37,951 nucleotides of DNA from a virus. Location of the stretch: positions 1 to 37,951 of the IMG/VR virus record IMGVR_UViG_3300043036_000015, one strand, 5' to 3'. The translations under genes were made by a program, and so were the position numbers. This document shows positions 1 through 37,951 of this stretch, piece after piece. How positions within the stretch are numbered: position 1 is the first letter of the stretch; every line of letters begins with the position of its first letter. Below the pieces are notes generated by a model, which worked only from the letters and a program-made list of their open reading frames with translations, searched no databases and had not been told where the DNA came from.

Positions 1-114
1 TACCTTCTCTACTACAGGCTCTGGAGTTTGTTCCACTGCGGGAGTCTCTTGTACCTGTTCTTCATCAATCGTATCCAAGTTTGGGTCAAACGATTCTTGC
101 TCAATAAGTGCCAT
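1..114 (-). CDS. Duplicate of the first 38 codons of the scaffolding-protein gene, created by the end overlap (partial)
   Basis: The ATG at 114 (minus) and the downstream codons are identical to 37938..37825. The ORF runs off the window start. Confidence 0.9.
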   Translation of the reverse strand, partial: MALIEQESFDPNLDTIDEEQVQETPAVEQTPEPVVEKV

Positions 115-127
115 ACTATTATTCTCC
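1..127. repeat. Terminal overlap, copy 1 (identical to 37825..37951)
   Basis: Read directly: bases 1-127 recur exactly at 37825-37951, so the unique unit is 37824 bp. This fits a circularly closed contig or a terminal redundancy. Confidence 0.97.
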
Positions 128-4123: not shown

Positions 4124-4484
4124 TCACATCCTCATCGGTGCTTACAGAGGGCGTATTCAAGCCGGTAATGTTGATGGAGATGTTAGGTACACCACCACCC
4201 TGCTTTGCTGCCTCGAAGGACGACACAGGTACAATCCTATCGACAATTAGCTTCCATGCAGCAGCTTGGTTCTTATGTTCATCGTTCAGAGCTGCATCGT
4301 ATATAGCCTCTAAGACCTTAGCACTCTTAGGTGAGTTAAGCATACGTAGCTTATACTCATTGATGATAGCAGCCTCACCTTTGGGACGACCTACTGATCT
4401 ACTCTCTTTGATTTCTCTAAGCTCAGACTTCTTTGGACGACCAATCTTACGCTTAGGTTCATCCTGTTGTTCTTCATTTTCCAT
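4113..4484 (-). CDS. terS: Terminase small subunit (putative)
   Basis: 123 aa and the first gene of the minus arm. It overlaps terL by 11 nt. The basic N-terminus has GRPKK / GRPKG DNA-binding-like repeats. Confidence 0.6.
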   Translation of the reverse strand: MENEEQQDEPKRKIGRPKKSELREIKESRSVGRPKGEAAIINEYKLRMLNSPKSAKVLEAIYDAALNDEHKNQAAAWKLIVDRIVPVSSFEAAKQGGGVPNISINITGLNTPSVSTDEDVIDV

Positions 4485-4544
4485 TTGTCTTTATCCTTTC
4501 TTAGGGAGACAACCTATCTACTTTTAGACCAAATGCTTATGCAC

Positions 4545-4558
4545 TTAAAGTACTTTAA
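4545..4558. promoter_or_regulatory. Perfect 14-bp palindrome TTAAAGTACTTTAA in the leader of the structural operon
   Basis: Read directly. It lies between the late promoter (4722-4750) and the terS ATG (4484). Confidence 0.55.
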
Positions 4559-4585
4559 AGGAACGTATAAGTTAAGAACTTAAAC

Positions 4586-4613
4586 ACTTATAGTATAAGT
4601 ACTTAGTGTAAGT
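4586..4613. promoter_or_regulatory. Two adjacent ACTTA..TAAGT palindromes (ACTTATAgTATAAGT, ACTTAgtgTAAGT)
   Basis: Read directly. The same core recurs at 8131-8141 downstream of another promoter. Confidence 0.5.
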
Positions 4614-4721
4614 ATTCTGTTAGTATTTAACTTATACATTCGTTGTATCAACTGTCCAGATTCCATGTTAGAGCTTAAGAGTCCATCACCTTCTTAGCAA
4701 CTATCATTACCTTATATGTAT

Positions 4722-4750
4722 ATTATACCATACTTTCTTGGATTTGTCAA
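4722..4750 (-). promoter_or_regulatory. Consensus sigma70 promoter for the structural (minus) arm
   Basis: The minus strand reads TTGACA(4750-4745)-17 nt-TATAAT(4727-4722), with TGg immediately upstream of the -10 (extended -10). The ACATATAAG tail resembles the other promoters. Confidence 0.75.
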
Positions 4751-4983
4751 GCTTTTCCTTCATTTGTTACAATTATTTACATATGTTACTTCTTAGGCAC
4801 TCCCTCCGACGCTCCGCTGGTGTCCACTATCGTTACCCTTAGACAGCAAACACTATGGTTTGTCTAGTCCTTATACTTTTTCTTGTCTATCAACTACTTA
4901 GCGCTTTAAGTGACATGGGCTAATCTGTCCTTAGTTAACAGAGTTAACCAACTAATTAATTCCTTTATTACCTTTTTTGTGAG

Positions 4984-5000
4984 CGTTGCAGGCTCCTACA
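4984..5000. repeat. Left arm of a perfect 17-bp inverted repeat (CGTTGCAGGCTCCTACA)
   Basis: Its reverse complement TGTAGGAGCCTGCAACG occurs at 5254-5270. Confidence 0.9.
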
Positions 5001-5040
5001 AAGATAAACTCATAAGCCACACCCCTCCCCCCCTACTAAG

Positions 5041-5340
5041 CAGTCACAAAGTTACTGATCAGTCACTATCTGTACACAACGGTAGCTAACTGTACGCATC
5101 TGTCGTTAACTATACCGCACAGTTATGGTGCATAATGGTCAGTCACAATGTATACTGATGAGTCACGTTGTAGACTGTTAGTGTAAGTTATAGACTGTTG
5201 AGTCACGTTGCAGACTGTTGAGTTACTTTGCAGGCAGATGGTGTGAGAGATGATGTAGGAGCCTGCAACGTATACTTACCAGCCACAACGCTACACTTAA
5301 CAGTCACAATCTAAACTACTCAGTCACAATCCAGCCACTA
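5041..5340 (+). repeat. Iteron-like array with an AGTCAC core repeated at about 20-bp phasing
   Basis: AGTCAC starts at 5042, 5061, 5141, 5161, 5201, 5302 and 5322. Variants AGTTAC/AGCCAC start at 5050, 5221, 5281 and 5333. Five consecutive degenerate 20-bp units span 5141-5240, and 5161-5180 matches 5201-5220 at 18/20. Confidence 0.85.
5254..5270. repeat. Right arm of the 17-bp inverted repeat
   Basis: Exact reverse complement of 4984-5000, with 253 bp between the arms. Confidence 0.9.
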
Positions 5341-5357
5341 CATTCACAGCTTGGAAG

Positions 5358-5428
5358 TTATCCACAGGTTGTTAAAGCACTGCCGAGTTATCCACAGCAC
5401 AGCAACATCCATGCCAGAGTTATCCACA
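5358..5428 (+). promoter_or_regulatory. Three perfect DnaA boxes (TTATCCACA) in direct orientation
   Basis: AGTTATCCACAG occurs three times. The 9-mers are at 5358-5366, 5388-5396 and 5420-5428 and match the E. coli-type high-affinity DnaA box consensus. Confidence 0.8.
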
Positions 5429-5457
5429 GGTTATCAGTCTTATATAAGACCTGAGAC

Positions 5458-5488
5458 TGTGGACAAGTACCACTACTGGTGTGGACAA
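5458..5488 (-). promoter_or_regulatory. Two inverted DnaA-box-like sites (TTGTCCACA, 8/9 match)
   Basis: TGTGGACAA occurs at 5458-5466 and 5480-5488, facing the three direct boxes. Confidence 0.6.
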
Positions 5489-5562
5489 CATTTGCCAAGG
5501 GGTAGGGTAGGGCAAGGGTAGATCGCGCCTCTACGGGCCTTTAAATCGATTTGATCGAAAGA

Positions 5563-5580
5563 TGTAACAAAGTGTAACAA
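5563..5580 (+). promoter_or_regulatory. Direct repeat TGTAACAA-N2-TGTAACAA upstream of the early promoter
   Basis: Read directly. It ends 15 bp upstream of the -35. A near-identical TGTTACAA pair sits upstream of the 8054 promoter. Confidence 0.45.
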
Positions 5581-5595
5581 ACAGGCTCAAAGGTG

Positions 5596-5623
5596 TTGAC
5601 ATTCACATCTGACGTGGTACACT
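5596..5623 (+). promoter_or_regulatory. Early sigma70 promoter
   Basis: TTGACA(5596-5601)-16 nt-TACACT(5618-5623) with an upstream TGg. It lies about 50 nt upstream of the first plus-arm gene. Confidence 0.7.
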
Positions 5624-5671
5624 ACATTCATGGAGTCGGGAAAGGCCTGACACCACAACTAAGGAACCATC

Positions 5672-5893
5672 ATGAAATTCACTCAATCATTTGACATTTG
5701 GGCTGTACCCTCTGCACTGCTCAAGCATGTGCAGCCGGGTCAATGGGTCTATGCTGGCACTAAGGACAATAAGGGCAGGTTCCTTGGCGTCAAGAAGTCA
5801 GGAACCATTGTCGTGGCTTGGCACGGTAACACCAAAGCACGGGCTGATAAGGCCTCTTACATCAAAACATTGCGTGCATACGCTAAAGGTTAA
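5672..5893 (+). CDS. Early protein, basic, unknown function
   Basis: 73-aa ORF with an AAGGA SD 7 nt upstream. It is the first gene after the promoter. Confidence 0.65.
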   Translation: MKFTQSFDIWAVPSALLKHVQPGQWVYAGTKDNKGRFLGVKKSGTIVVAWHGNTKARADKASYIKTLRAYAKG

Positions 5894-5896
5894 ACC

Positions 5897-5986
5897 ATGA
5901 AACATGATATTCAGGAAATCATCATTACAATCGCCTGTCTCGCTGTCTTTGCCCTTTGGGGTGTTTTGTTGGCCTTGGGAGTCTGA
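5897..5986 (+). CDS. Small hydrophobic peptide (29 aa, one predicted TM segment)
   Basis: Hand-translated: MKHDIQEIIITIACLAVFALWGVLLALGV. It fills the gap between neighbouring genes exactly. Confidence 0.4.
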   Translation: MKHDIQEIIITIACLAVFALWGVLLALGV

Positions 5987-5988
5987 CC

Positions 5989-6159
5989 ATGAATCACATC
6001 TCTAGATCATTGCACAAAACAGCTTCATGGGTGATTGTGAACAAAGCCACCAATTACCCTGTGTTTGAGACTTTCAACGAAAACACAGCAAAGGCTGTCA
6101 ATCAAAGGCTTTATAAGGCTGTACCCATCTTGGAATGGTTGCAGAGTCTAAACAAATGA
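5989..6159 (+). CDS. Early protein, unknown function (56 aa)
   Basis: I prefer the internal ATG of track ORF 5956..6159 because it sits 2 nt after the upstream stop. Confidence 0.55.
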   Translation: MNHISRSLHKTASWVIVNKATNYPVFETFNENTAKAVNQRLYKAVPILEWLQSLNK

Positions 6160-6258
6160 TTGCAGCCTGATGGGTTCTTATGCTAGAATCCATTGGAGTG
6201 CAATCCTACCGCACTAAATCCCGCCTGTGATGTACAGGTAACAACTGAGATTTACACC

Positions 6259-6582
6259 ATGAAAACTACTGTTGATTTTAACGATTTCCGTCACGCCTTC
6301 AACGCTATTCGCCCTGACAACTTTAGCCGTGAAGGTCTTGAACAGTTGTTCGATTACTTCGCGTCTTACGAACAGGACACAGGCGAAGAAATCGAGTTGG
6401 ACGTGATCGCCATTTGCTGCGAGTATAGCGAACAATCATGGCAATCTATTGCCTCTGATTATGATGTTGACGTTGATGGCTTGGATGATACCGAAGCAAA
6501 GCAACACGTTATGAACTATTTGTGTGATAACACCTCGGTCATTGGTGAGACTTCCGATGGTTTCGTCTATCAGTGCTTTTAA
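6259..6582 (+). CDS. Acidic early protein, unknown function
   Basis: Track ORF 6193..6582. I prefer the ATG at 6259 (MKTTVDFNDF...). The protein is rich in D/E. Confidence 0.6.
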   Translation: MKTTVDFNDFRHAFNAIRPDNFSREGLEQLFDYFASYEQDTGEEIELDVIAICCEYSEQSWQSIASDYDVDVDGLDDTEAKQHVMNYLCDNTSVIGETSDGFVYQCF

Positions 6583-6928: not shown

Positions 6929-7116
6929 CCAACACCCCAATGGCCTCAAATGGCCTTATAACGTACCGTTACCGGGGCCGCTATGGTTTCATATACATTG
7001 GTGCAAGAACTGACACCGAGGCATTGTCAGAGGCGCAGCGCAGCACTGACGATAAAGTCACGGCTGACAGACTTGAACGTCACAACGGTCAACGCTTTGT
7101 AGGGGTCTTATCATGA
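6925..7116 (+). CDS. Early protein, unknown function
   Basis: 63-aa ORF with an ATGA overlap to the upstream gene. Confidence 0.55.
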   Translation: MTNTPMASNGLITYRYRGRYGFIYIGARTDTEALSEAQRSTDDKVTADRLERHNGQRFVGVLS

Positions 7117-7316
7117 GTAGATACGAAGTCCAATTCAAAACCAGCGGCATTGTGGCCTTCAGTGCCACAGAACGGGCCATCTGTCAGCATTGGTACGAGT
7201 GCAACAACTACGGGCCAGAGATGGCCTATTGTGACCCCGCAACGGGTGAGATTGTCCCTGACAAGTGGGTCAGGGGTGAATGTCTTGAATTGTTCATAAT
7301 TAAGAGGGTGAAATGA
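7113..7316 (+). CDS. Early protein, unknown function
   Basis: 67-aa ORF with an ATGA overlap to the upstream gene. Confidence 0.55.
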   Translation: MSRYEVQFKTSGIVAFSATERAICQHWYECNNYGPEMAYCDPATGEIVPDKWVRGECLELFIIKRVK

Positions 7317-7414
7317 TGTATACTTGGCCCTTCCCTGCCTTCCCTAATCCATTGGACAAGGGCACAAAAGTGCCTAAATTTAACCCTTCAAACCATGAGG
7401 ATGCGCCATTGTGA
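7313..7414 (+). CDS. Small early peptide (33 aa)
   Basis: Hand-translated: MMYTWPFPAFPNPLDKGTKVPKFNPSNHEDAPL. It has an ATGA overlap upstream, a GTGA overlap downstream and a GAGGGTG SD. Confidence 0.4.
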   Translation: MMYTWPFPAFPNPLDKGTKVPKFNPSNHEDAPL

Positions 7415-7632
7415 CCAAGATTAAACAATTCGTATACAAATTAAGGGGCTGTGAATGGTACGGGCTTTGTGAGGTTCAATCCATTGAGTCCCTGCCCTTG
7501 ATCGTTCGATGCACTGACCTGTACCTTGAAGGATACAGGGACGATAACCCTCCAGACATGAGGGACATTGTAGACTATCAGTTAGTCCTTGACATTGAAG
7601 ACATGGTAAGAATCGAGGCCGAGAATGCCTAA
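7411..7632 (+). CDS. Early protein, unknown function (GTG start)
   Basis: 73-aa ORF coupled to the upstream peptide. Confidence 0.5.
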   Translation: MTKIKQFVYKLRGCEWYGLCEVQSIESLPLIVRCTDLYLEGYRDDNPPDMRDIVDYQLVLDIEDMVRIEAENA

Positions 7633-11424: not shown

Positions 11425-11646
11425 ATGCCTGACATTAGTATGTGTAACGATTATTCCTGTCCTAAGTTTGACAAGTGCTACCGAGCGCAGGCTAAACCTA
11501 GTGAGTACCGACAAGCATACTTTGCTAGTTCACCTCGTAGTGTAGACGGTTGCGAATACTTTAGCCCTTTGGAAAAAACAAATGAGAATAGTTCTCGACA
11601 TCGAAACAAACCTAGCACACGACAAGATTCACCTAGTCGTGACTAA
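11425..11646 (+). CDS. Cys-rich small protein, unknown function
   Basis: Track ORF 11410..11646. I prefer the ATG at 11425 with a GAGGAGG SD. It overlaps the DNA polymerase start by 65 nt in another frame. Confidence 0.5.
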   Translation: MPDISMCNDYSCPKFDKCYRAQAKPSEYRQAYFASSPRSVDGCEYFSPLEKTNENSSRHRNKPSTRQDSPSRD

Positions 11647-12832
11647 AGACATTGACACTGGAGAAGTACGCACATGGAAAGCAGCAAGCAACCTGCCGGA
11701 GTTTTTAAAGGACGCATCGTTGATAGTCATGCACAACGGCATAAGTTTCGATGCACCAGTATTGAATCGCTTATGGAAGACGAAGATTCGTTCGAGTCAA
11801 GTGTACGATACATTGATAGTAAGCAGGCTTCTCGACCCGAGCCGCGAGAACGGTCACAGCCTCGAAGCATGGGGACAAACTCTAGGCTTTCACAAGATTG
11901 ACTATGCTGCTGTATGGCGGTGGATGATGGACAGGAAGGAAGAGTATGCAGGAGAGTGTTTTGACAGCCCTATTGCTGGTCTTCTTGAGCATTACTGTGT
12001 TAGGGACGTTGAAGTTACTTGTAAGCTGTATCATCGGCTTAACAGTGACTTGGCTGAGAAGCAGTTTAGCCAAGAGAGTGTCGAACTCGAACACAGAGTA
12101 GCAGCAATCATATCAAAGCAAGAACGAAATGGATTCAAACTTGACCAAATCTACGCAACCTGTTTACTTACTGACATCAAGTCAAAAGTGGCAGGAATAT
12201 ATGAGCGAATGCAACAGAGATGGCCTCCTGTCACTCTTGAGCGATTCTCTGACAAAACAGGAAAGAGACTCAAGGACAGCGTGGTTACTTTCAACCCCGG
12301 AAGTAGACAGCAAATTGGGGAACGACTGAAGGAACTCGGATGGAAGCCCAAGGAGTTCACAGAGACAGGTATTCCAAAGGTAGATGAAACTATCTTAGCT
12401 AACATCAAGATTCCAGAAGCTCAGGTTATTGCTGAGTATCTGATGCTACAGAAACGTATCAGTCAGATTGAGTCTTGGATGGAAGCTGTAGGCAAGGATG
12501 GTAGGGTGCATGGTAAGGTCATTACTAACGGTGCTGTTACAGGCCGAATGACCCACAGTAGCCCTAACATGGCTCAGATCCCCAATGCAGGTTCCATCTA
12601 TGGGCCTGAGTGCCGGGAATGCTGGTCAGTTGAGGATGGTAATGTGTTGGTAGGTTGCGATGCTTCAGGTCTGGAGCTTCGTATGTTGGCTCACTATATG
12701 AAGGATGAAGATTATGTCAGAACTGTCTGTGAGGGATCATCTAAAGATGGAACGGATGTTCATACAGTTAACCAAAGAGCAGCAGGACTCTCTTCTAGAG
12801 ATAATGCAAAGACTTTTATCTACGCCTTCCTT
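11582..12832 (+). CDS. Family A DNA polymerase (T7 gp5-like), exon 1
   Basis: 417 codons. Exo I motif LDIETN sits near the N-terminus. The exon ends ...SRDNAKTFIYAFL, in the middle of motif B (O-helix), and a stop codon follows immediately. Confidence 0.9.
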
Positions 12833-12943
12833 TGACTAAATAGAGGCTTTACCTAGGAATAGGTATCGAAAATCCGGTGAACTCAGGGGAAGACCAGAAC
12901 GGTTAATCCTGAGCCAAGCAAGTAAGCTTATTGTAAGTCATTT

Positions 12944-12980: not shown

Positions 12981-13424
12981 ATGACAGCATTAACACAAAC
13001 AGAATTGCAGTTTCGCCATCGTAGGACACTGAAAGGAACTATCTCTAACAAACTAATGTCAGCCAAGAAACGAGCAAGAAACGATAATTTATCTTTCGAG
13101 CTTGATAACGCTTACGTAACTTCTCTCTGGGAACAACAAGAAGGTAAGTGTGCAAAAACAGGTGTTGAGTTAGGACGTATTGGAGATAAGTGGTTATCCC
13201 CTTCCTTGGATCGCATTGATCCTTTACAAGGATACATAAAAGGGAATGTTCAGTGGACTTGTTGGAGATATAATGATGCTAAGAGTAACATGAGTGATGA
13301 TTCGTTTACTTCCATGTGTCTAGCAATCGCTGCTACTTATTTTAAGCAACTTGAAGGTGCAACGACTATCCCGAAAGGGAGTACATCCAAGCGGATGGAA
13401 GCGCCGGACAACCAGTTAGGTTGA
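12981..13424 (+). CDS. Intron-encoded HNH-type (His-Me finger) homing endonuclease (putative)
   Basis: 147-aa ORF with SLDRIDPLQGYIKGNVQWTCWRYNDAK, which resembles the xDRID..GY..xNvq....N..K pattern of many phage proteins annotated as HNH endonucleases. It has a strong SD, and its 3' end overlaps the ribozyme core. Confidence 0.65.
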   Translation: MTALTQTELQFRHRRTLKGTISNKLMSAKKRARNDNLSFELDNAYVTSLWEQQEGKCAKTGVELGRIGDKWLSPSLDRIDPLQGYIKGNVQWTCWRYNDAKSNMSDDSFTSMCLAIAATYFKQLEGATTIPKGSTSKRMEAPDNQLG

Positions 13425-13504
13425 TGATATAGTCTGCTCTACATAGGAATATGTAGCAGTTCGTAAGAACGGACAGAGCCTAGCGAACTCTGTTGAACAT
13501 TAGG

Positions 13505-13966
13505 TATGGTGCGGGAGATGCAAAGATTGGTAGTATTGTGGGGGGCAGTGCAAGAGATGGAACAAAGCTCAAAGCCAAGTTCCTCGCGCAAACACCGTCC
13601 CTCGCTAAACTTCTTGAACGAGTCGGAAAGCAAGCAGCAAAAGGATGGGTTCCCGGACTTGATGGGAGGCGTATTTGGGTTCGATCCGAGCATGCGGCTC
13701 TCAATTCGCTCCTCCAAGGGGCCGGAGCAATCGTGATGAAGAAGGCTCTCGTGATCTTTGATGACAAACGCAAGGCTAACAAATGGCCTGTGAAGTATGT
13801 CGCCAATGTCCACGATGAGGCCCAGCTAGAATGCCCTAAAGATATTGCTGAGGAGGTCGGTAAAGCCTTCAGACAAAGTATCATTGAGGCAGGGGAAGCT
13901 TACAGTTTACGGTGTCCACTAGATGGGGAGTACAAGATTGGTAGAAACTGGAGAGAAACACATTGA
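13505..13966 (+). CDS. Family A DNA polymerase, exon 2
   Basis: It begins YGAGDAKIGSIVGG..., which completes motif B, and contains motif C (NVHDEAQLE). The spliced product is 570 aa. Confidence 0.88.
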   Translation, partial: YGAGDAKIGSIVGGSARDGTKLKAKFLAQTPSLAKLLERVGKQAAKGWVPGLDGRRIWVRSEHAALNSLLQGAGAIVMKKALVIFDDKRKANKWPVKYVANVHDEAQLECPKDIAEEVGKAFRQSIIEAGEAYSLRCPLDGEYKIGRNWRETH

Positions 13967-23889: not shown

Positions 23890-24273
23890 TTAAGGGTACA
23901 CGCTACGGTGTAGTTCAAAGTGAGGACCATCTTTGAAGGATTGCCAATCACCGCCCCAGACAATATCAATACCTAGCTCTTTGGCTACTTTCTTGATATG
24001 GTCTGCTGCTGTTTGGTAGTACTTAAAGTCCCATGTGACCTTGCCATCAACCAGAACAGCAATATCAATAGCTTTACCTGTGATATGTCTGCTGTTCATA
24101 GTCTGAGACTTACCCGCATCAAAGAGTTCCTTCTGGCGCTCCTTGGTGCGTAAGCCTTCGGTGATGGAGAAGTCCAAAGGAGACTCTTTGATAGCCTCTT
24201 CAATGACCTTTACCAGATCGGGATGAACTCCTGTGAGCCTGTCCTTGCTTCGTTGTCCTAATGCGAATGTCAT
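23890..24273 (-). CDS. Endolysin, peptidase M15 (L-alanyl-D-glutamate peptidase / VanY-like)
   Basis: 127 aa with zinc-ligand context SRHITGKAIDI and DGPHFEL. Size and layout resemble the T5-type endolysin. Confidence 0.85.
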   Translation of the reverse strand: MTFALGQRSKDRLTGVHPDLVKVIEEAIKESPLDFSITEGLRTKERQKELFDAGKSQTMNSRHITGKAIDIAVLVDGKVTWDFKYYQTAADHIKKVAKELGIDIVWGGDWQSFKDGPHFELHRSVYP

Positions 24274-37155: not shown

Positions 37156-37938
37156 TTACTTAACTCGACCTTGTGCATAAGCTGCCATGATTTCAGGTTG
37201 GAGCAGCTCATACCGATCTGGGTCGGTCATCTTCAGACGGATTAAATCCGCACGGCGGTAAACTTTCTTTGCAACTTCGCCAGATCCACTTGTATCCACA
37301 CCAGCGGCTCGAAGAGCTTGTGCTTGTTGTTTCTTACCAGTTTCCTGTATGTTGTTGTTACGAACCTGTTTAAGTTCTTTGTACGTGCTTAAGAGTTCAT
37401 CTGCTGAACCGAAGTCAAACTCTGCATCAGCCTTGGCATACAGACTCAGACGAATAGGGCTTGCCTTGACCCACTCCTGAAATCCAGTGTCGTTGGCAAT
37501 ACTGCCAAAGTCAGGATGTTTGGAAGCAAGCTGCTGCGCTGTCTTCATCCGTTTAAGCTCAAGGTTGGCTTGTTTAGCCTCCAGAACTGCGGGGTTATTC
37601 TCGATTGCACGTTTAATCGAATCTTGAGGGTTCTCAAAGAAATCAACTTCGGGCGTACTTTCAACAGTCTGTGCCTTATCGCTTTCGAGTTGTCGTTTAA
37701 GCAGTTGATCCGCTAATGAACGTACTTCGTGTACTTCCTGTGCTTGCCTCCCAATCATCTTTTCAGCTTCTTGGTGCATCTTAACAATATCCTCTAAGGA
37801 CTTGTCTTTGTATTTATCAGGAATTACCTTCTCTACTACAGGCTCTGGAGTTTGTTCCACTGCGGGAGTCTCTTGTACCTGTTCTTCATCAATCGTATCC
37901 AAGTTTGGGTCAAACGATTCTTGCTCAATAAGTGCCAT
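37156..37938 (-). CDS. Scaffolding protein (putative)
   Basis: 260 aa, acidic and helical, located immediately upstream of the capsid gene. Confidence 0.65.
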   Translation of the reverse strand: MALIEQESFDPNLDTIDEEQVQETPAVEQTPEPVVEKVIPDKYKDKSLEDIVKMHQEAEKMIGRQAQEVHEVRSLADQLLKRQLESDKAQTVESTPEVDFFENPQDSIKRAIENNPAVLEAKQANLELKRMKTAQQLASKHPDFGSIANDTGFQEWVKASPIRLSLYAKADAEFDFGSADELLSTYKELKQVRNNNIQETGKKQQAQALRAAGVDTSGSGEVAKKVYRRADLIRLKMTDPDRYELLQPEIMAAYAQGRVK

Positions 37939-37951
37939 ACTATTATTCTCC
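37825..37951. repeat. Terminal overlap, copy 2 (identical to 1..127)
   Basis: Exact 127-bp match to the window start. Confidence 0.97.

What the first reader, a model, noticed from the sequence alone, without database searches (positions are those of the whole stretch)
5358..5488. Cluster of five DnaA boxes (three perfect TTATCCACA) in a phage that encodes its own T7-like replisome
AGTTATCCACAG occurs three times in direct orientation, 30 and 32 bp apart. Two inverted TTGTCCACA sites follow, 22 bp apart. A perfect 9-mer is expected about 0.3 times by chance in 38 kb on both strands, so three within 71 bp is not chance. T7-type phages normally start replication from RNAP-dependent origins, and this genome has no phage RNAP. 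One explanation is that host DnaA is recruited to open a phage origin next to the iterons and the AT-rich block. Another is that the cluster acts as a datA-like sink that titrates DnaA and interferes with host initiation or with DnaA-regulated transcription of the divergent promoters. Either would be unusual for this phage type.
Basis: partly seen in the sequence, partly recalled or inferred. Interest (0 to 1): 0.8.

Follow-up and report, generated by a model that had tools for sequence, protein, structure and literature searches.

The report
Portable DnaA-box module in freshwater phages
The five DnaA boxes are real and form the core of a conserved non-coding DNA cassette of about 140-190 bp that is shared by several unrelated lytic phage lineages, so it is most likely a docking platform for the host replication initiator DnaA, but it is optional because most close relatives lack it.

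Summary
Three perfect TTATCCACA boxes lie on the + strand and two TTGTCCACA boxes on the - strand within 131 bp. They sit in the 1.2-kb divergent intergenic region of a circularly assembled genome of about 37.8 kb. The phage has a T7-like replisome and no detectable RNAP.

The cluster is not private to this genome. It is the core of a module found in 112 viral contigs and at least 120 metagenome contigs. Carriers include cultured Limnohabitans phage DC31 and at least four other gene-content types with different primase-helicases. Spacing is fixed. The free box varies only at the N of the TTATNCACA consensus. Same-strand boxes are mostly in helical phase. This points to selection for an ordered DnaA complex.

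The module is absent from bacterial genomes and plasmids. It is also optional: only 13 of 42 syntenic relatives, sampled without regard to the module, carry it. Eight have other DnaA-box arrays in the same region and 21 have one box or none. GC skew is uninformative.

Best reading (about 0.4): a dispensable, horizontally mobile DnaA-docking accessory of an iteron-type origin and early control region. Rivals are a DnaA sink or inactivator, DnaA control of early transcription, and a T5-iss-like entry anchor.

The parts
4485..5671 (.). Divergent intergenic control region. It lies between the leftward terS-like/TerL/portal operon and the rightward early and replication genes.
   Evidence: ORF map and domain hits. 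The left part, 4485 to about 5035, is conserved in relatives. The stretch from about 5035 to 5910 is a hypervariable cassette zone.
4540..4980 (.). AT-rich zone of lowest duplex stability. It carries a perfect sigma-70 promoter on the - strand (4750-4722) and a weaker one on the + strand (4744-4773).
   Evidence: GC 0.32-0.36. Nearest-neighbour stability is in the top 1% least stable of the genome. Promoter scan.
4984..5000 (.). Left arm of a perfect 17-nt inverted repeat. The repeat brackets most of the iterons.
   Evidence: the repeat finder I4. The motif recurs in relatives with and without the module.
5035..5345 (+). Array of about 10-15 direct repeats (iterons) with a CAGTCAC core at a 20-nt period.
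   Evidence: Families D1-D3. The same core and period lie next to the module in DC31-type phages. The iterons are kept in relatives that lack the DnaA module.
5254..5270 (.). Right arm of the 17-nt inverted repeat.
   Evidence: I4.
5358..5366 (+). DnaA box 1 (TTATCCACA). It is an optional upstream box of the extended module.
   Evidence: The number of upstream forward boxes varies from 0 to 4 among variants.
5388..5396 (+). DnaA box 2 (TTATCCACA).
5401..5416 (-). Sigma-54-type -24/-12-like motif, TGGCATGGATGTTGCT. It lies between box 2 and box 3 and points left.
   Evidence: Regex scan. The motif is present at this place in 45 of 197 module variants. Its function is unknown.
5420..5428 (+). 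DnaA box 3 (TTATCCACA). It is the left arm of the core dyad.
   Evidence: This box was not part of the search pattern. It reads TTATNCACA in 146 of 197 variants, with N = C 65, G 49, A 26, T 6.
5438..5449 (.). Perfect 12-nt AT-rich palindrome, TCTTATATAAGA. It is the centre of the dyad and a local stability minimum.
   Evidence: The DNA hairpin spanning box 3, the palindrome and box 4 has dG -9.7 kcal/mol and z -3.6. The same palindrome is tandemly repeated 4-5 times in L050 and in L325/L328/L329.
5458..5466 (-). DnaA box 4 (TTGTCCACA on the - strand). It is the right arm of the dyad.
5480..5488 (-). DnaA box 5 (TTGTCCACA on the - strand). It lies exactly 13 nt after box 4.
   Evidence: The 13-nt gap is kept in 183 of 197 variants.
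5495..5545 (+). Conserved tail of the module. It consists of CCAAGGGG, a G-rich tract, a short GC inverted repeat and TTTAAA. Conservation stops abruptly after TTTAAA.
   Evidence: Position-specific information content. nhmmer profile match at 5412-5552.
5596..5623 (+). Sigma-70-type early promoter (TTGACA-16-TACACT), preceded by two GTAACAAA repeats at 5563-5581. It is also present in relatives without the module.
5672..5893 (+). 73-aa early protein (phrog_21585, function unknown). In the unbiased sample it occurs only together with the module.
   Evidence: It is present in 4 of 13 module carriers and 0 of 29 non-carriers, Fisher p=0.006. A homologue with 54% identity lies 1.5 kb downstream of the module in DC31. 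A confident AF2 model has no PDB fold match.

Best explanation
The cluster is the core of a horizontally mobile, non-coding docking module for host DnaA. The core is about 140 bp (window 5411-5552) and about 190 bp with the two extra upstream boxes.

High-affinity boxes placed mostly on one face of the helix converge on a 12-nt AT-rich palindrome, so several DnaA molecules would assemble into an ordered complex. In this phage the module is inserted between an iteron array and the early promoter, inside an AT-rich / iteron / DnaA-box arrangement typical of iteron-type theta origins.

The most likely role is as an accessory to initiation of phage DNA replication. DnaA would bend or destabilise the adjacent DNA, or tie firing of the phage origin to the host's DnaA status. 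That would replace the RNAP-made primer or opening step that T7 uses and that this RNAP-less relative cannot have.

Shown here: the sequence anatomy, its conservation, its mobility and its dispensability. Inferred: DnaA binding itself, and the link to replication.
For: 1. Box-level selection. Box 3 was not in the search pattern, yet it reads TTATNCACA in 146 of 197 variants and varies exactly at N.
2. Fixed geometry. Box 4 to box 5 is 13 nt in 183 of 197 variants. The palindrome-to-box 4 gap is 8 nt in 167. Same-strand box spacings cluster at 11, 30-32, 41-43, 52-53 and 63-64 nt, and 71% fall within 1 nt of a multiple of 10.5.
3. Origin-like context arising twice. The window has an AT-rich zone, then 20-nt iterons, then the boxes. 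DC31-type phages have CAGTCA iterons or AT-rich tandem repeats directly upstream of the same boxes.
4. Recurrence. Syntenic relatives without this module often carry other DnaA-box arrays at the same place, either 2-3 tandem TTATCCACAgg units or 4 reverse boxes 19 nt apart.
5. No phage RNAP is detectable, although the replisome is T7-like.
6. The module occurs with at least three unrelated primase-helicase types: gp4-like, Prim-Pol/DUF3987 and DUF5906. That fits dependence on a host factor.
7. The distance to the next promoter is not conserved, because information content falls to zero after TTTAAA. That argues against a classical operator or activator site.
8. The module is the best-conserved DNA between the window and DC31: 82.6% over 115 nt, against 67-72% for the best coding matches.
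Against: 1. The module is missing from 29 of 42 close syntenic relatives (75-98% TerL identity). These keep the iterons, the inverted repeat and the promoter. It is therefore not required for replication in this lineage.
2. GC skew gives no independent support. In DC31 the module lies inside a co-oriented gene block and shows no skew inflection.
3. No iteron-binding initiator was identified.
4. There are no DnaA-trio repeats. The AT-rich element between the boxes is only 12-20 nt, and the main AT-rich zone is about 500 nt away.
5. The phage brings its own helicase-primase, so DnaA-mediated loading of DnaB is not obviously needed.
6. Some carriers (L126, L094) have the core module without iterons.
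7. All five boxes are of the high-affinity type, which is also what a sink would use.
Confidence: 0.4

Rival explanations
1. Host-takeover element. The module acts like datA, or as a simple sink. As the phage genome amplifies, hundreds of copies of five high-affinity boxes sequester DnaA or promote its inactivation, which blocks new rounds of host chromosome initiation or disturbs DnaA-regulated host genes.
For: All boxes are consensus or near-consensus high-affinity sites. The module is accessory, patchy among close relatives and moves between lineages, like other host-takeover cargo. It is independent of the phage's replisome type. It can occur without iterons. A small unknown early protein, p73, travels only with it.
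Against: A plain sink needs neither fixed spacing nor a dyad, a palindrome or a conserved 60-nt tail. No IHF consensus lies in the module, whereas datA needs one. The DARS geometry of opposite boxes 5 bp apart (PMC6868365) is not met, since the gap here is 28-29 bp. The benefit to a lytic phage is unproven.
Confidence: 0.2
2. Transcriptional control element. DnaA bound to the module regulates the downstream early operon, or a leftward transcript from the sigma-54-like motif between boxes 2 and 3. Early gene expression would then depend on the host's growth and replication state.
For: The module lies upstream of a transcription unit that reads in the direction of its tail. Where the coding strand could be called, 38 of 39 loci are co-oriented (a crude test), and DC31 fits this pattern. 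A sigma-70 promoter starts 108 nt after box 5 in the window. Sigma-54-type -24/-12 motifs lie at 121-164 nt in 16 of 26 DC31-type loci and inside 45 of 197 modules.
Against: The early promoter exists unchanged in relatives without the module. The distance from module to promoter is not conserved. No good promoter lies inside the module, because the palindrome lacks a -10 hexamer with both A2 and T6 (read from the sequence). No enhancer-binding protein was found among ten DC31 proteins.
Confidence: 0.2
3. DNA-entry or anchoring signal like the proposed T5 injection stop signal. Boxes on the first-entering part of the genome bind membrane-associated DnaA and pause or tether the incoming DNA.
For: T5-like phages carry a conserved non-coding array of 8 DnaA boxes in the iss region, which is not thought to be an origin (Davison, bioRxiv 10.1101/866236). 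Here too the module sits just upstream of the earliest genes.
Against: The box arrangement differs. T5 has pairs 3 bp apart inside inverted repeats, whereas spacings here are 11, 22 and 30-32 nt. Physical genome ends are unknown for both the window and DC31, because both are 127-nt-overlap circular assemblies. Contig ends cluster in the iteron zone but not at one nucleotide. The element is dispensable in relatives. The T5 model itself is untested.
Confidence: 0.08
4. A selfish or neutral mobile non-coding element, or a recombination boundary. It persists because it spreads and has no function for the phage. A related possibility is a structured RNA gene.
For: Presence or absence is discrete (nhmmer at least 98 bits, or nothing). 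The right boundary is sharp. The distribution is patchy and crosses lineages.
Against: There are no terminal inverted repeats or target duplications. Conservation follows the DnaA consensus position by position. There is no Rfam match. The only consensus fold is the DNA dyad, with no covariation. The module always lies in the same kind of regulatory location.
Confidence: 0.07

Closest known systems
Iteron-type theta origins of plasmids and phage-plasmids with auxiliary DnaA boxes (P1 oriR, F oriS, RK2 oriV, pSC101 ori). The details of these origins are from my own knowledge.
   Same: An AT-rich region, an array of 19-22-bp direct repeats and a cluster of consensus DnaA boxes lie side by side. 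In several of these plasmids the DnaA boxes are auxiliary and partly dispensable, as they are here.
   Different: No Rep-type initiator gene is recognisable next to the iterons. There is no sequence similarity to any PLSDB plasmid. The host here is a lytic phage with its own gp4-like helicase-primase. The box module is a separate cassette that also occurs without iterons.
DnaA-box array of the T5 injection stop signal (iss) region (Davison, bioRxiv 10.1101/866236)
   Same: Both are conserved, non-coding, precisely arranged arrays of consensus and near-consensus DnaA boxes with inverted symmetry. Both occur in lytic phages, upstream of or among the earliest genes, and both are better conserved than the surrounding genes.
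   Different: T5 has 8 boxes, in pairs 3 bp apart, embedded in two large inverted repeats inside the terminal repeat. Here 3-6 boxes lie at 11, 22 or 30-32 nt around a 12-nt palindrome. The position relative to the genome ends is unknown. The element is optional within the lineage.
E. coli datA and DARS1/2 (non-coding DnaA-regulatory loci)
   Same: These are short non-coding clusters of DnaA boxes. What matters in them is the geometry of a DnaA complex, not opening of an origin. DARS includes oppositely oriented boxes.
   Different: DARS boxes I and II are 5 bp apart (PMC6868365), against 28-29 bp here. datA needs an IHF site, and none lies in the module. Those loci are chromosomal, whereas this module is absent from 185,579 representative bacterial genomes apart from one 7.5-kb binned contig.
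Bacterial oriC and its basal unwinding system (DnaA boxes, DnaA-trios and an AT-rich DUE). The oriC architecture is from my own knowledge.
   Same: Both have consensus boxes in helical phase, tandem boxes with a 2-bp gap in some variants (TTATCCACAggTTATCCACA), and an AT-rich element next to the boxes.
   Different: There are no DnaA-trios. The AT-rich element is very short. The module is neither chromosomal nor next to dnaA or dnaN, and it is about 140 bp in all.
T7 primary origin (phage RNAP promoters 1.1A/B followed by an AT-rich stretch). This is from my own knowledge.
   Same: The replisome type is the same: gp4-like primase-helicase, family-A polymerase, gp6-like exonuclease and endonuclease I. 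The candidate origin lies near the start of the early and replication gene block.
   Different: There is no phage RNAP and there are no phage promoters. Host-factor sites (DnaA boxes, sigma-70 promoters and sigma-54-like motifs) take their place.

Membership tests
DnaA box (consensus TTATNCACA of Schaper and Messer, as quoted in 10.1101/866236) | A 9-mer matching the consensus | tested here: met
   Three perfect boxes and two one-mismatch boxes (TTGTCCACA) lie in 131 bp.
DnaA box (consensus TTATNCACA of Schaper and Messer, as quoted in 10.1101/866236) | Across homologues, the eight specified positions are constrained and position 5 is free | tested here: met
   Box 3 reads TTATNCACA in 146 of 197 variants, with N = C 65, G 49, A 26, T 6.
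DnaA box (consensus TTATNCACA of Schaper and Messer, as quoted in 10.1101/866236) | Specific binding by DnaA | not testable with these tools
   This needs EMSA or footprinting with host DnaA.
Iteron-type plasmid-like origin | Array of direct repeats at about two helical turns | tested here: met
   About 10-15 CAGTCAC units lie at a 20-nt period between 5035 and 5345.
Iteron-type plasmid-like origin | Adjacent AT-rich, easily melted region | tested here: met
   The stretch 4540-4980 has GC 0.32-0.36 and is in the top 1% least stable.
Iteron-type plasmid-like origin | Cognate iteron-binding initiator encoded nearby | tested here: inconclusive
   The small early ORFs have no Pfam or PHROG function. 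A weak association of the 7113-7316 and 7411-7632 ORFs with AGTCAC-rich arrays is confounded by relatedness.
Iteron-type plasmid-like origin | Supports replication | not testable with these tools
   GC skew is confounded by gene orientation. It is negative in DC31, where the two can be separated.
Bacterial oriC / basal unwinding system | DnaA-trio repeats next to the boxes | tested here: not met
   No run of three or more WAR trinucleotides lies on either strand of 5340-5560.
Bacterial oriC / basal unwinding system | Chromosomal locus, or a copy of one | tested here: not met
   The pattern GTTRTYAGTCTTATATAAGA matched 18 stretches in 185,579 species genomes. Only one carries the module, a 7.5-kb MAG contig that may be mis-binned phage DNA.
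datA-type DnaA-inactivating locus | IHF-binding site within the box cluster | tested here: not met
   WATCARNNNNTTR does not occur in 5340-5560. The nearest match is at 4888-4900.
DARS-type DnaA-reactivating sequence | Oppositely oriented boxes I and II separated by about 5 bp | tested here: not met
   The opposite boxes 3 and 4 are 28-29 bp apart in the window and DC31. DARS spacing is from PMC6868365.
T5-type iss DnaA-box region | Boxes in pairs 3 bp apart inside large inverted repeats | tested here: not met
   Start-to-start spacings are 11, 22, 30-32 nt and larger multiples.
T5-type iss DnaA-box region | Location in the first-injected terminal repeat | not testable with these tools
   The window and DC31 are both circular assemblies with a 127-nt overlap.
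T7-type RNAP-dependent origin | Phage RNAP and its promoters upstream of an AT-rich stretch | tested here: not met
   No RNAP was found among the ORFs.
Known structured RNA (Rfam 15) | Covariance-model match | tested here: not met
   There is no match at E <= 1 in 4400-5800. Alifold finds only the invariant DNA dyad.

The most novel reading that the evidence does not exclude
The module is a self-contained, horizontally exchangeable 'plug' into the host's replication-initiation control. A non-coding cassette of about 140 bp assembles an ordered DnaA complex. It moves among unrelated lytic phages that probably share a host group, judged from the one cultured carrier and a 67%-identical endolysin. 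Any recipient phage could then either fire its own DNA synthesis with host DnaA or shut down host initiation. On this reading, adjacent arrays of sigma-54-type sites in some carriers would be a second host-factor docking or decoy unit of the same kind.
Probability: 0.3. Interest if true: 0.8.

Novelty: new variant of a known kind. Interest (0 to 1): 0.62.

Why it matters
Origins and early control regions of uncultured environmental phages are almost unknown. How T7-like phages that lack an RNA polymerase start replication is an open question.

This work yields a sharply defined, abundant cis-element with a fixed architecture. A cultured carrier, Limnohabitans phage DC31, makes it directly testable. 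If DnaA binds the element and affects phage or host replication, that would show that lytic phages trade a non-coding module that couples them to the host's master initiator. It would be a new class of mobile regulatory cargo.

The module is also a practical marker for host prediction and for annotating phage origin and early regions in metagenomes.

Tried and rejected
- **GC skew as origin evidence.** The window's cumulative minimum falls at 5427, inside the cluster. In DC31 the skew follows gene orientation and ignores the module, so I rejected it as uninformative.
- **Capture from a host oriC or a plasmid.** Only one module-bearing contig turned up in the GTDB representative genomes, and there was no PLSDB match.
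- **RNA gene.** No Rfam hit. The consensus fold equals the DNA dyad, with no covariation. The short GC inverted repeat before TTTAAA gave no alifold structure.
- **Function of p73.** No Pfam hit. PHROG lists it as unknown. A confident AF2 model (pLDDT 91) has no PDB fold match below E = 0.3.
- **Physical genome ends.** Contig ends are enriched in the iteron zone, but not at a fixed nucleotide, so these are probably assembly breaks. Both complete records are k-mer-overlap circles.
- **Iteron-binding protein by association.** Numbers are too small and relatedness confounds the result.
- **Sigma-54 activator in DC31.** None among ten proteins scanned.
- **Lineage counting by single-linkage protein sharing.** Everything collapsed into one component. 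I replaced this with hallmark-based classes.
- **Coding-strand calls by stop-free coverage.** The method is noisy.
- **Second unbiased sample in the DC31 lineage.** Only 7 loci were recovered, too few to use.
- **Sample of origin.** The look-up gave no habitat information.

Full report
**1. The observation**

The sequence is as described. TTATCCACA occurs on the + strand at 5358, 5388 and 5420. TTGTCCACA occurs on the - strand at 5458 and 5480. The 12-mer AGTTATCCACAG is repeated with start-to-start distances of 30 and 32 nt. About 0.29 perfect 9-mers are expected in the whole window, so three within 71 bp is far beyond chance. At one mismatch or fewer the window holds 18 sites against 8.7 +/- 2.8 in shuffles.

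**2. The genome**

The window has an exact 127-nt terminal overlap. It is therefore a circular assembly of about 37.8 kb. Genes form two arms that diverge from the 1.2-kb intergenic region 4485-5671.
- The leftward arm carries a 123-aa terS-like ORF, TerL, portal, major capsid protein and tail genes, and wraps around the junction.
- The rightward arm carries small early ORFs, a gp4-like primase-helicase, a split family-A polymerase, a 5'-3' exonuclease, T7 endonuclease I, ThyX, RNR, PhoH and ClpP.

No RNA polymerase is detectable. No cultured phage has a TerL above 30% identity.

**3. Anatomy of the intergenic region**

From left to right:
- An AT-rich, least-stable zone (4540-4980) with a perfect leftward sigma-70 promoter.
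- One arm of a perfect 17-nt inverted repeat (4984-5000) and a C-tract.
- About 10-15 CAGTCAC repeats at a 20-nt period (5035-5345), enclosing the other repeat arm (5254-5270).
- Boxes 1-3.
- The 12-nt palindrome TCTTATATAAGA (5438-5449).
- Boxes 4 and 5.
- A G-rich tail ending in TTTAAA (5540-5545).
- Two GTAACAAA repeats.
- A sigma-70 early promoter (5596-5623).
- A 73-aa ORF (5672-5893).

**4. The cluster is the core of a widespread module**

A search of cultured phages with 4300-6300 gave a single hit: 82.6% identity over 115 nt, exactly at boxes 2-5, in Limnohabitans phage DC31 (76 kb). The hit lies in a 930-nt gap between unnamed early genes.

DC31 has five perfect boxes in the same 3 + 2 arrangement. 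CAGTCA repeats at 20 nt and AT-rich TTATATAAGC repeats precede them. In a whole-genome comparison this non-coding stretch is the best-conserved DNA shared by the two phages. It scores higher than the endolysin and RNR genes.

Pattern scans found many more copies.
- 8 viral contigs match a box 3-flank pattern.
- 112 viral contigs and at least 120 metagenome contigs match a palindrome-box 4 pattern.
- These give about 197 distinct 220-mers.

In 185,579 representative bacterial genomes only one 7.5-kb binned contig carries the module. No plasmid in PLSDB matches, and Rfam has nothing.

**5. What is conserved**

Box 3 was not part of the main search pattern. It reads TTATNCACA in 146 of 197 variants, and N takes all four bases (C 65, G 49, A 26, T 6). 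This is the signature of the DnaA consensus.

Box 5 lies exactly 13 nt after box 4 in 183 of 197 variants. The palindrome-to-box 4 gap is 8 nt in 167.

Same-strand boxes are spaced at 11, 30-32, 41-43, 52-53 and 63-64 nt. In all, 71% fall within 1 nt of a multiple of 10.5, so most boxes lie on one face of the helix.

Box 3, the palindrome and box 4 form a dyad (DNA hairpin dG -9.7 kcal/mol, z -3.6). The only consensus fold of the alignment is this dyad, without covariation, so it is a DNA-level element.

Conservation continues through CCAAGGGG and a short GC inverted repeat to TTTAAA. It then drops to zero. An nhmmer profile matches window 5412-5552 once per genome.

**6. Who carries it**

I classed 234 module-bearing loci by gene content:

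| Class | Loci |
|---|---|
| Syntenic with the window | 131 |
| DC31-type | 30 |
| Other | 28 |
| Too short to classify | 45 |

The 'other' class includes phages with a Prim-Pol/PriCT_2/DUF3987 primase-helicase (L028), a DUF5906 helicase (L042), a different TerL and portal (L050), and a siphovirus-like gene set (L109). The module is therefore independent of the phage's own replication machinery.

The window and DC31 share only a few proteins. These include a 67%-identical endolysin, which suggests a similar host group.

**7. It is optional**

I drew an unbiased sample by fetching TerL relatives without regard to the module. Forty-two loci (75-98% TerL identity) had at least 2.3 kb of upstream sequence.

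| Content of the region upstream of TerL | Loci |
|---|---|
| Full module, 5-6 boxes (nhmmer at least 98 bits) | 13 |
| Other DnaA-box arrays: 2-3 tandem TTATCCACAgg at 11 nt, or 4 reverse boxes 19 nt apart | 8 |
| One box or none | 21 |

The 29 loci without the module gave no nhmmer hit at E < 1e-3.

Relatives without the module keep the left conserved part, iterons, the long inverted repeat and the early promoter with its GTTACAAA repeats. Presence does not track TerL identity. The module is thus a discrete cassette in a hypervariable zone (about 5035-5910) that recombines often.

That condition is largely met for an essential origin role. However, the independent recurrence of DnaA boxes at this spot shows that DnaA binding there is repeatedly selected.

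**8. Tests that failed to discriminate**
- The cumulative GC-skew minimum of the window is at 5427, but that is also the strand switch. In DC31 the module lies inside a co-oriented block, and the skew minimum sits at the strand switch (35.1 kb), not at the module (20.3 kb).
- Physical ends are unknown for both genomes. Contig ends pile up in the iteron zone, but not at one nucleotide.
- No initiator for the iterons could be named.

**9. Interpretation**

I am confident, at roughly 0.85, that this is a selected DnaA-binding platform. What DnaA does there is inferred.

I favour an accessory role in phage replication initiation (about 0.4), for four reasons.
- The AT-rich / iteron / box order is that of iteron-type origins, and it is assembled twice with different flanking repeats.
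- The boxes are phased and converge on an AT-rich palindrome.
- A T7-like replisome without RNAP needs another way to open or prime its origin.
- The distance to downstream promoters is not conserved, which speaks against an operator.

In several iteron plasmids the DnaA boxes are auxiliary and host-dependent (my own knowledge), which would fit the patchy distribution.

Four points count against this reading: the module is dispensable, the AT element is very short, DnaA-trios are absent, and the phage has its own helicase.

The rivals are:
- A datA-like or simple sink for host takeover (0.2). This fits the accessory, mobile nature and the high-affinity boxes. It does not fit the elaborate fixed architecture. 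The module has no IHF site and does not have DARS geometry.
- DnaA control of early transcription (0.2). This fits the constant orientation toward downstream genes and the neighbouring promoters.
- A T5-iss-like entry signal (0.08).
- A selfish or neutral element, or an RNA gene (0.07).

**10. Novelty**

DnaA boxes in plasmid and phage-plasmid origins are known, and so is the T5 iss array. A conserved, portable DnaA-box cassette shared by unrelated lytic phages is not in Rfam. It is not mentioned in the paper that describes DC31 (PMC12195039), and my literature searches did not find it. I rate it a new variant of a known kind, with moderately high interest because a cultured carrier makes it testable.

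Noticed in passing
window 5401-5416 (- strand); L001 about 6211-6226; L126 and L094, 130-350 nt after the module: Sigma-54-type -24/-12 motifs (TGGCAY-N5-TTGC) accompany the module. One points leftward between boxes 2 and 3 in the window and in 45 of 197 variants. One points rightward 121-164 nt after the palindrome in 16 of 26 DC31-type loci. Arrays of 4-7 copies about 26 nt apart occur in L126 and L094. This is far above chance (about 0.2 expected). No activator gene was found.
   Followed up: partly
window 5672-5893: This 73-aa early protein (phrog_21585, unknown function) is found only together with the module in the unbiased sample (4 of 13 carriers against 0 of 29 non-carriers). It also lies downstream of the module in DC31-type phages (54-62% identity). 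A confident AF2 model has no PDB fold match.
   Followed up: partly
L252 17667-18425 (DC31); L109 1710-2360; L028 3087-3743 (oriented copies): A Cys-rich GP88-family protein (PF17338, unknown function) lies 1-2.6 kb downstream of the module in three unrelated lineages. A similar ORF also follows the early promoter in L268, a window-type relative without the module.
   Followed up: no
window 5035-5910 compared with L254-L333: The stretch holding the iterons, the module, the early promoter and the first early genes is a hypervariable mosaic among phages whose flanks are 73-90% identical. Short palindromes such as GTTCCACGTGAAAC and AGGGTAAACCCT are shuffled between relatives. Metagenome contig ends pile up here.
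   Followed up: partly
window 4984-5000 and 5254-5270: A perfect 17-nt inverted repeat brackets about 250 nt of iterons. Both arms are recognisable in relatives, whatever the iteron type and whether or not the module is present.
   Followed up: no
L050, 90-10 nt before the anchor; L325/L328/L329 contig ends: The module's palindrome GTCTTATATAAGAC is itself tandemly repeated 4-5 times at about 22 nt in some phages. This suggests it is a binding site for a dimeric protein and not merely an easily melted spacer.
   Followed up: no
window 5035-5345: The iteron core CAGTCAC contains GTC, always on the same strand. GTC is the trinucleotide recognised by the T7 gp4 primase (my own knowledge). The array could be a priming zone for the gp4-like enzyme that both the window phage and DC31 encode. 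This is an idea only.
   Followed up: no
window 11582-12835, 12981-13424, 13493-13966: The family-A DNA polymerase is split. A 417-aa piece carries the exonuclease and the N-terminal polymerase part. A 157-aa piece carries the polymerase C-terminus. A 147-aa ORF of unknown function lies between them.
   Followed up: no
window 1-127 and 37825-37951; DC31 record ends: Both sequences carry an exact 127-nt terminal overlap, which is an assembler k-mer artefact of circular assembly. Record starts are therefore arbitrary and the physical termini are unknown.
   Followed up: yes
window 23890-24273 (- strand): The 127-aa endolysin (annotated as L-alanyl-D-glutamate peptidase in DC31) is 67% identical to that of Limnohabitans phage DC31. 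It is the most similar protein between the two genomes and hints at a Limnohabitans-like host.
   Followed up: partly
window 4888-4900: An IHF-consensus match (TATCAACTACTTA) lies in the conserved left part of the intergenic region, and the sequence is also conserved in relatives. The genome-wide count of such matches is at chance level (4 against 3.4 expected).
   Followed up: no
window 5499-5521: A canonical G-quadruplex-type motif (GGGG TA GGG TA GGG CAA GGG) lies on the + strand just after box 5. Only the CCAAGGGG start is conserved among variants.
   Followed up: no
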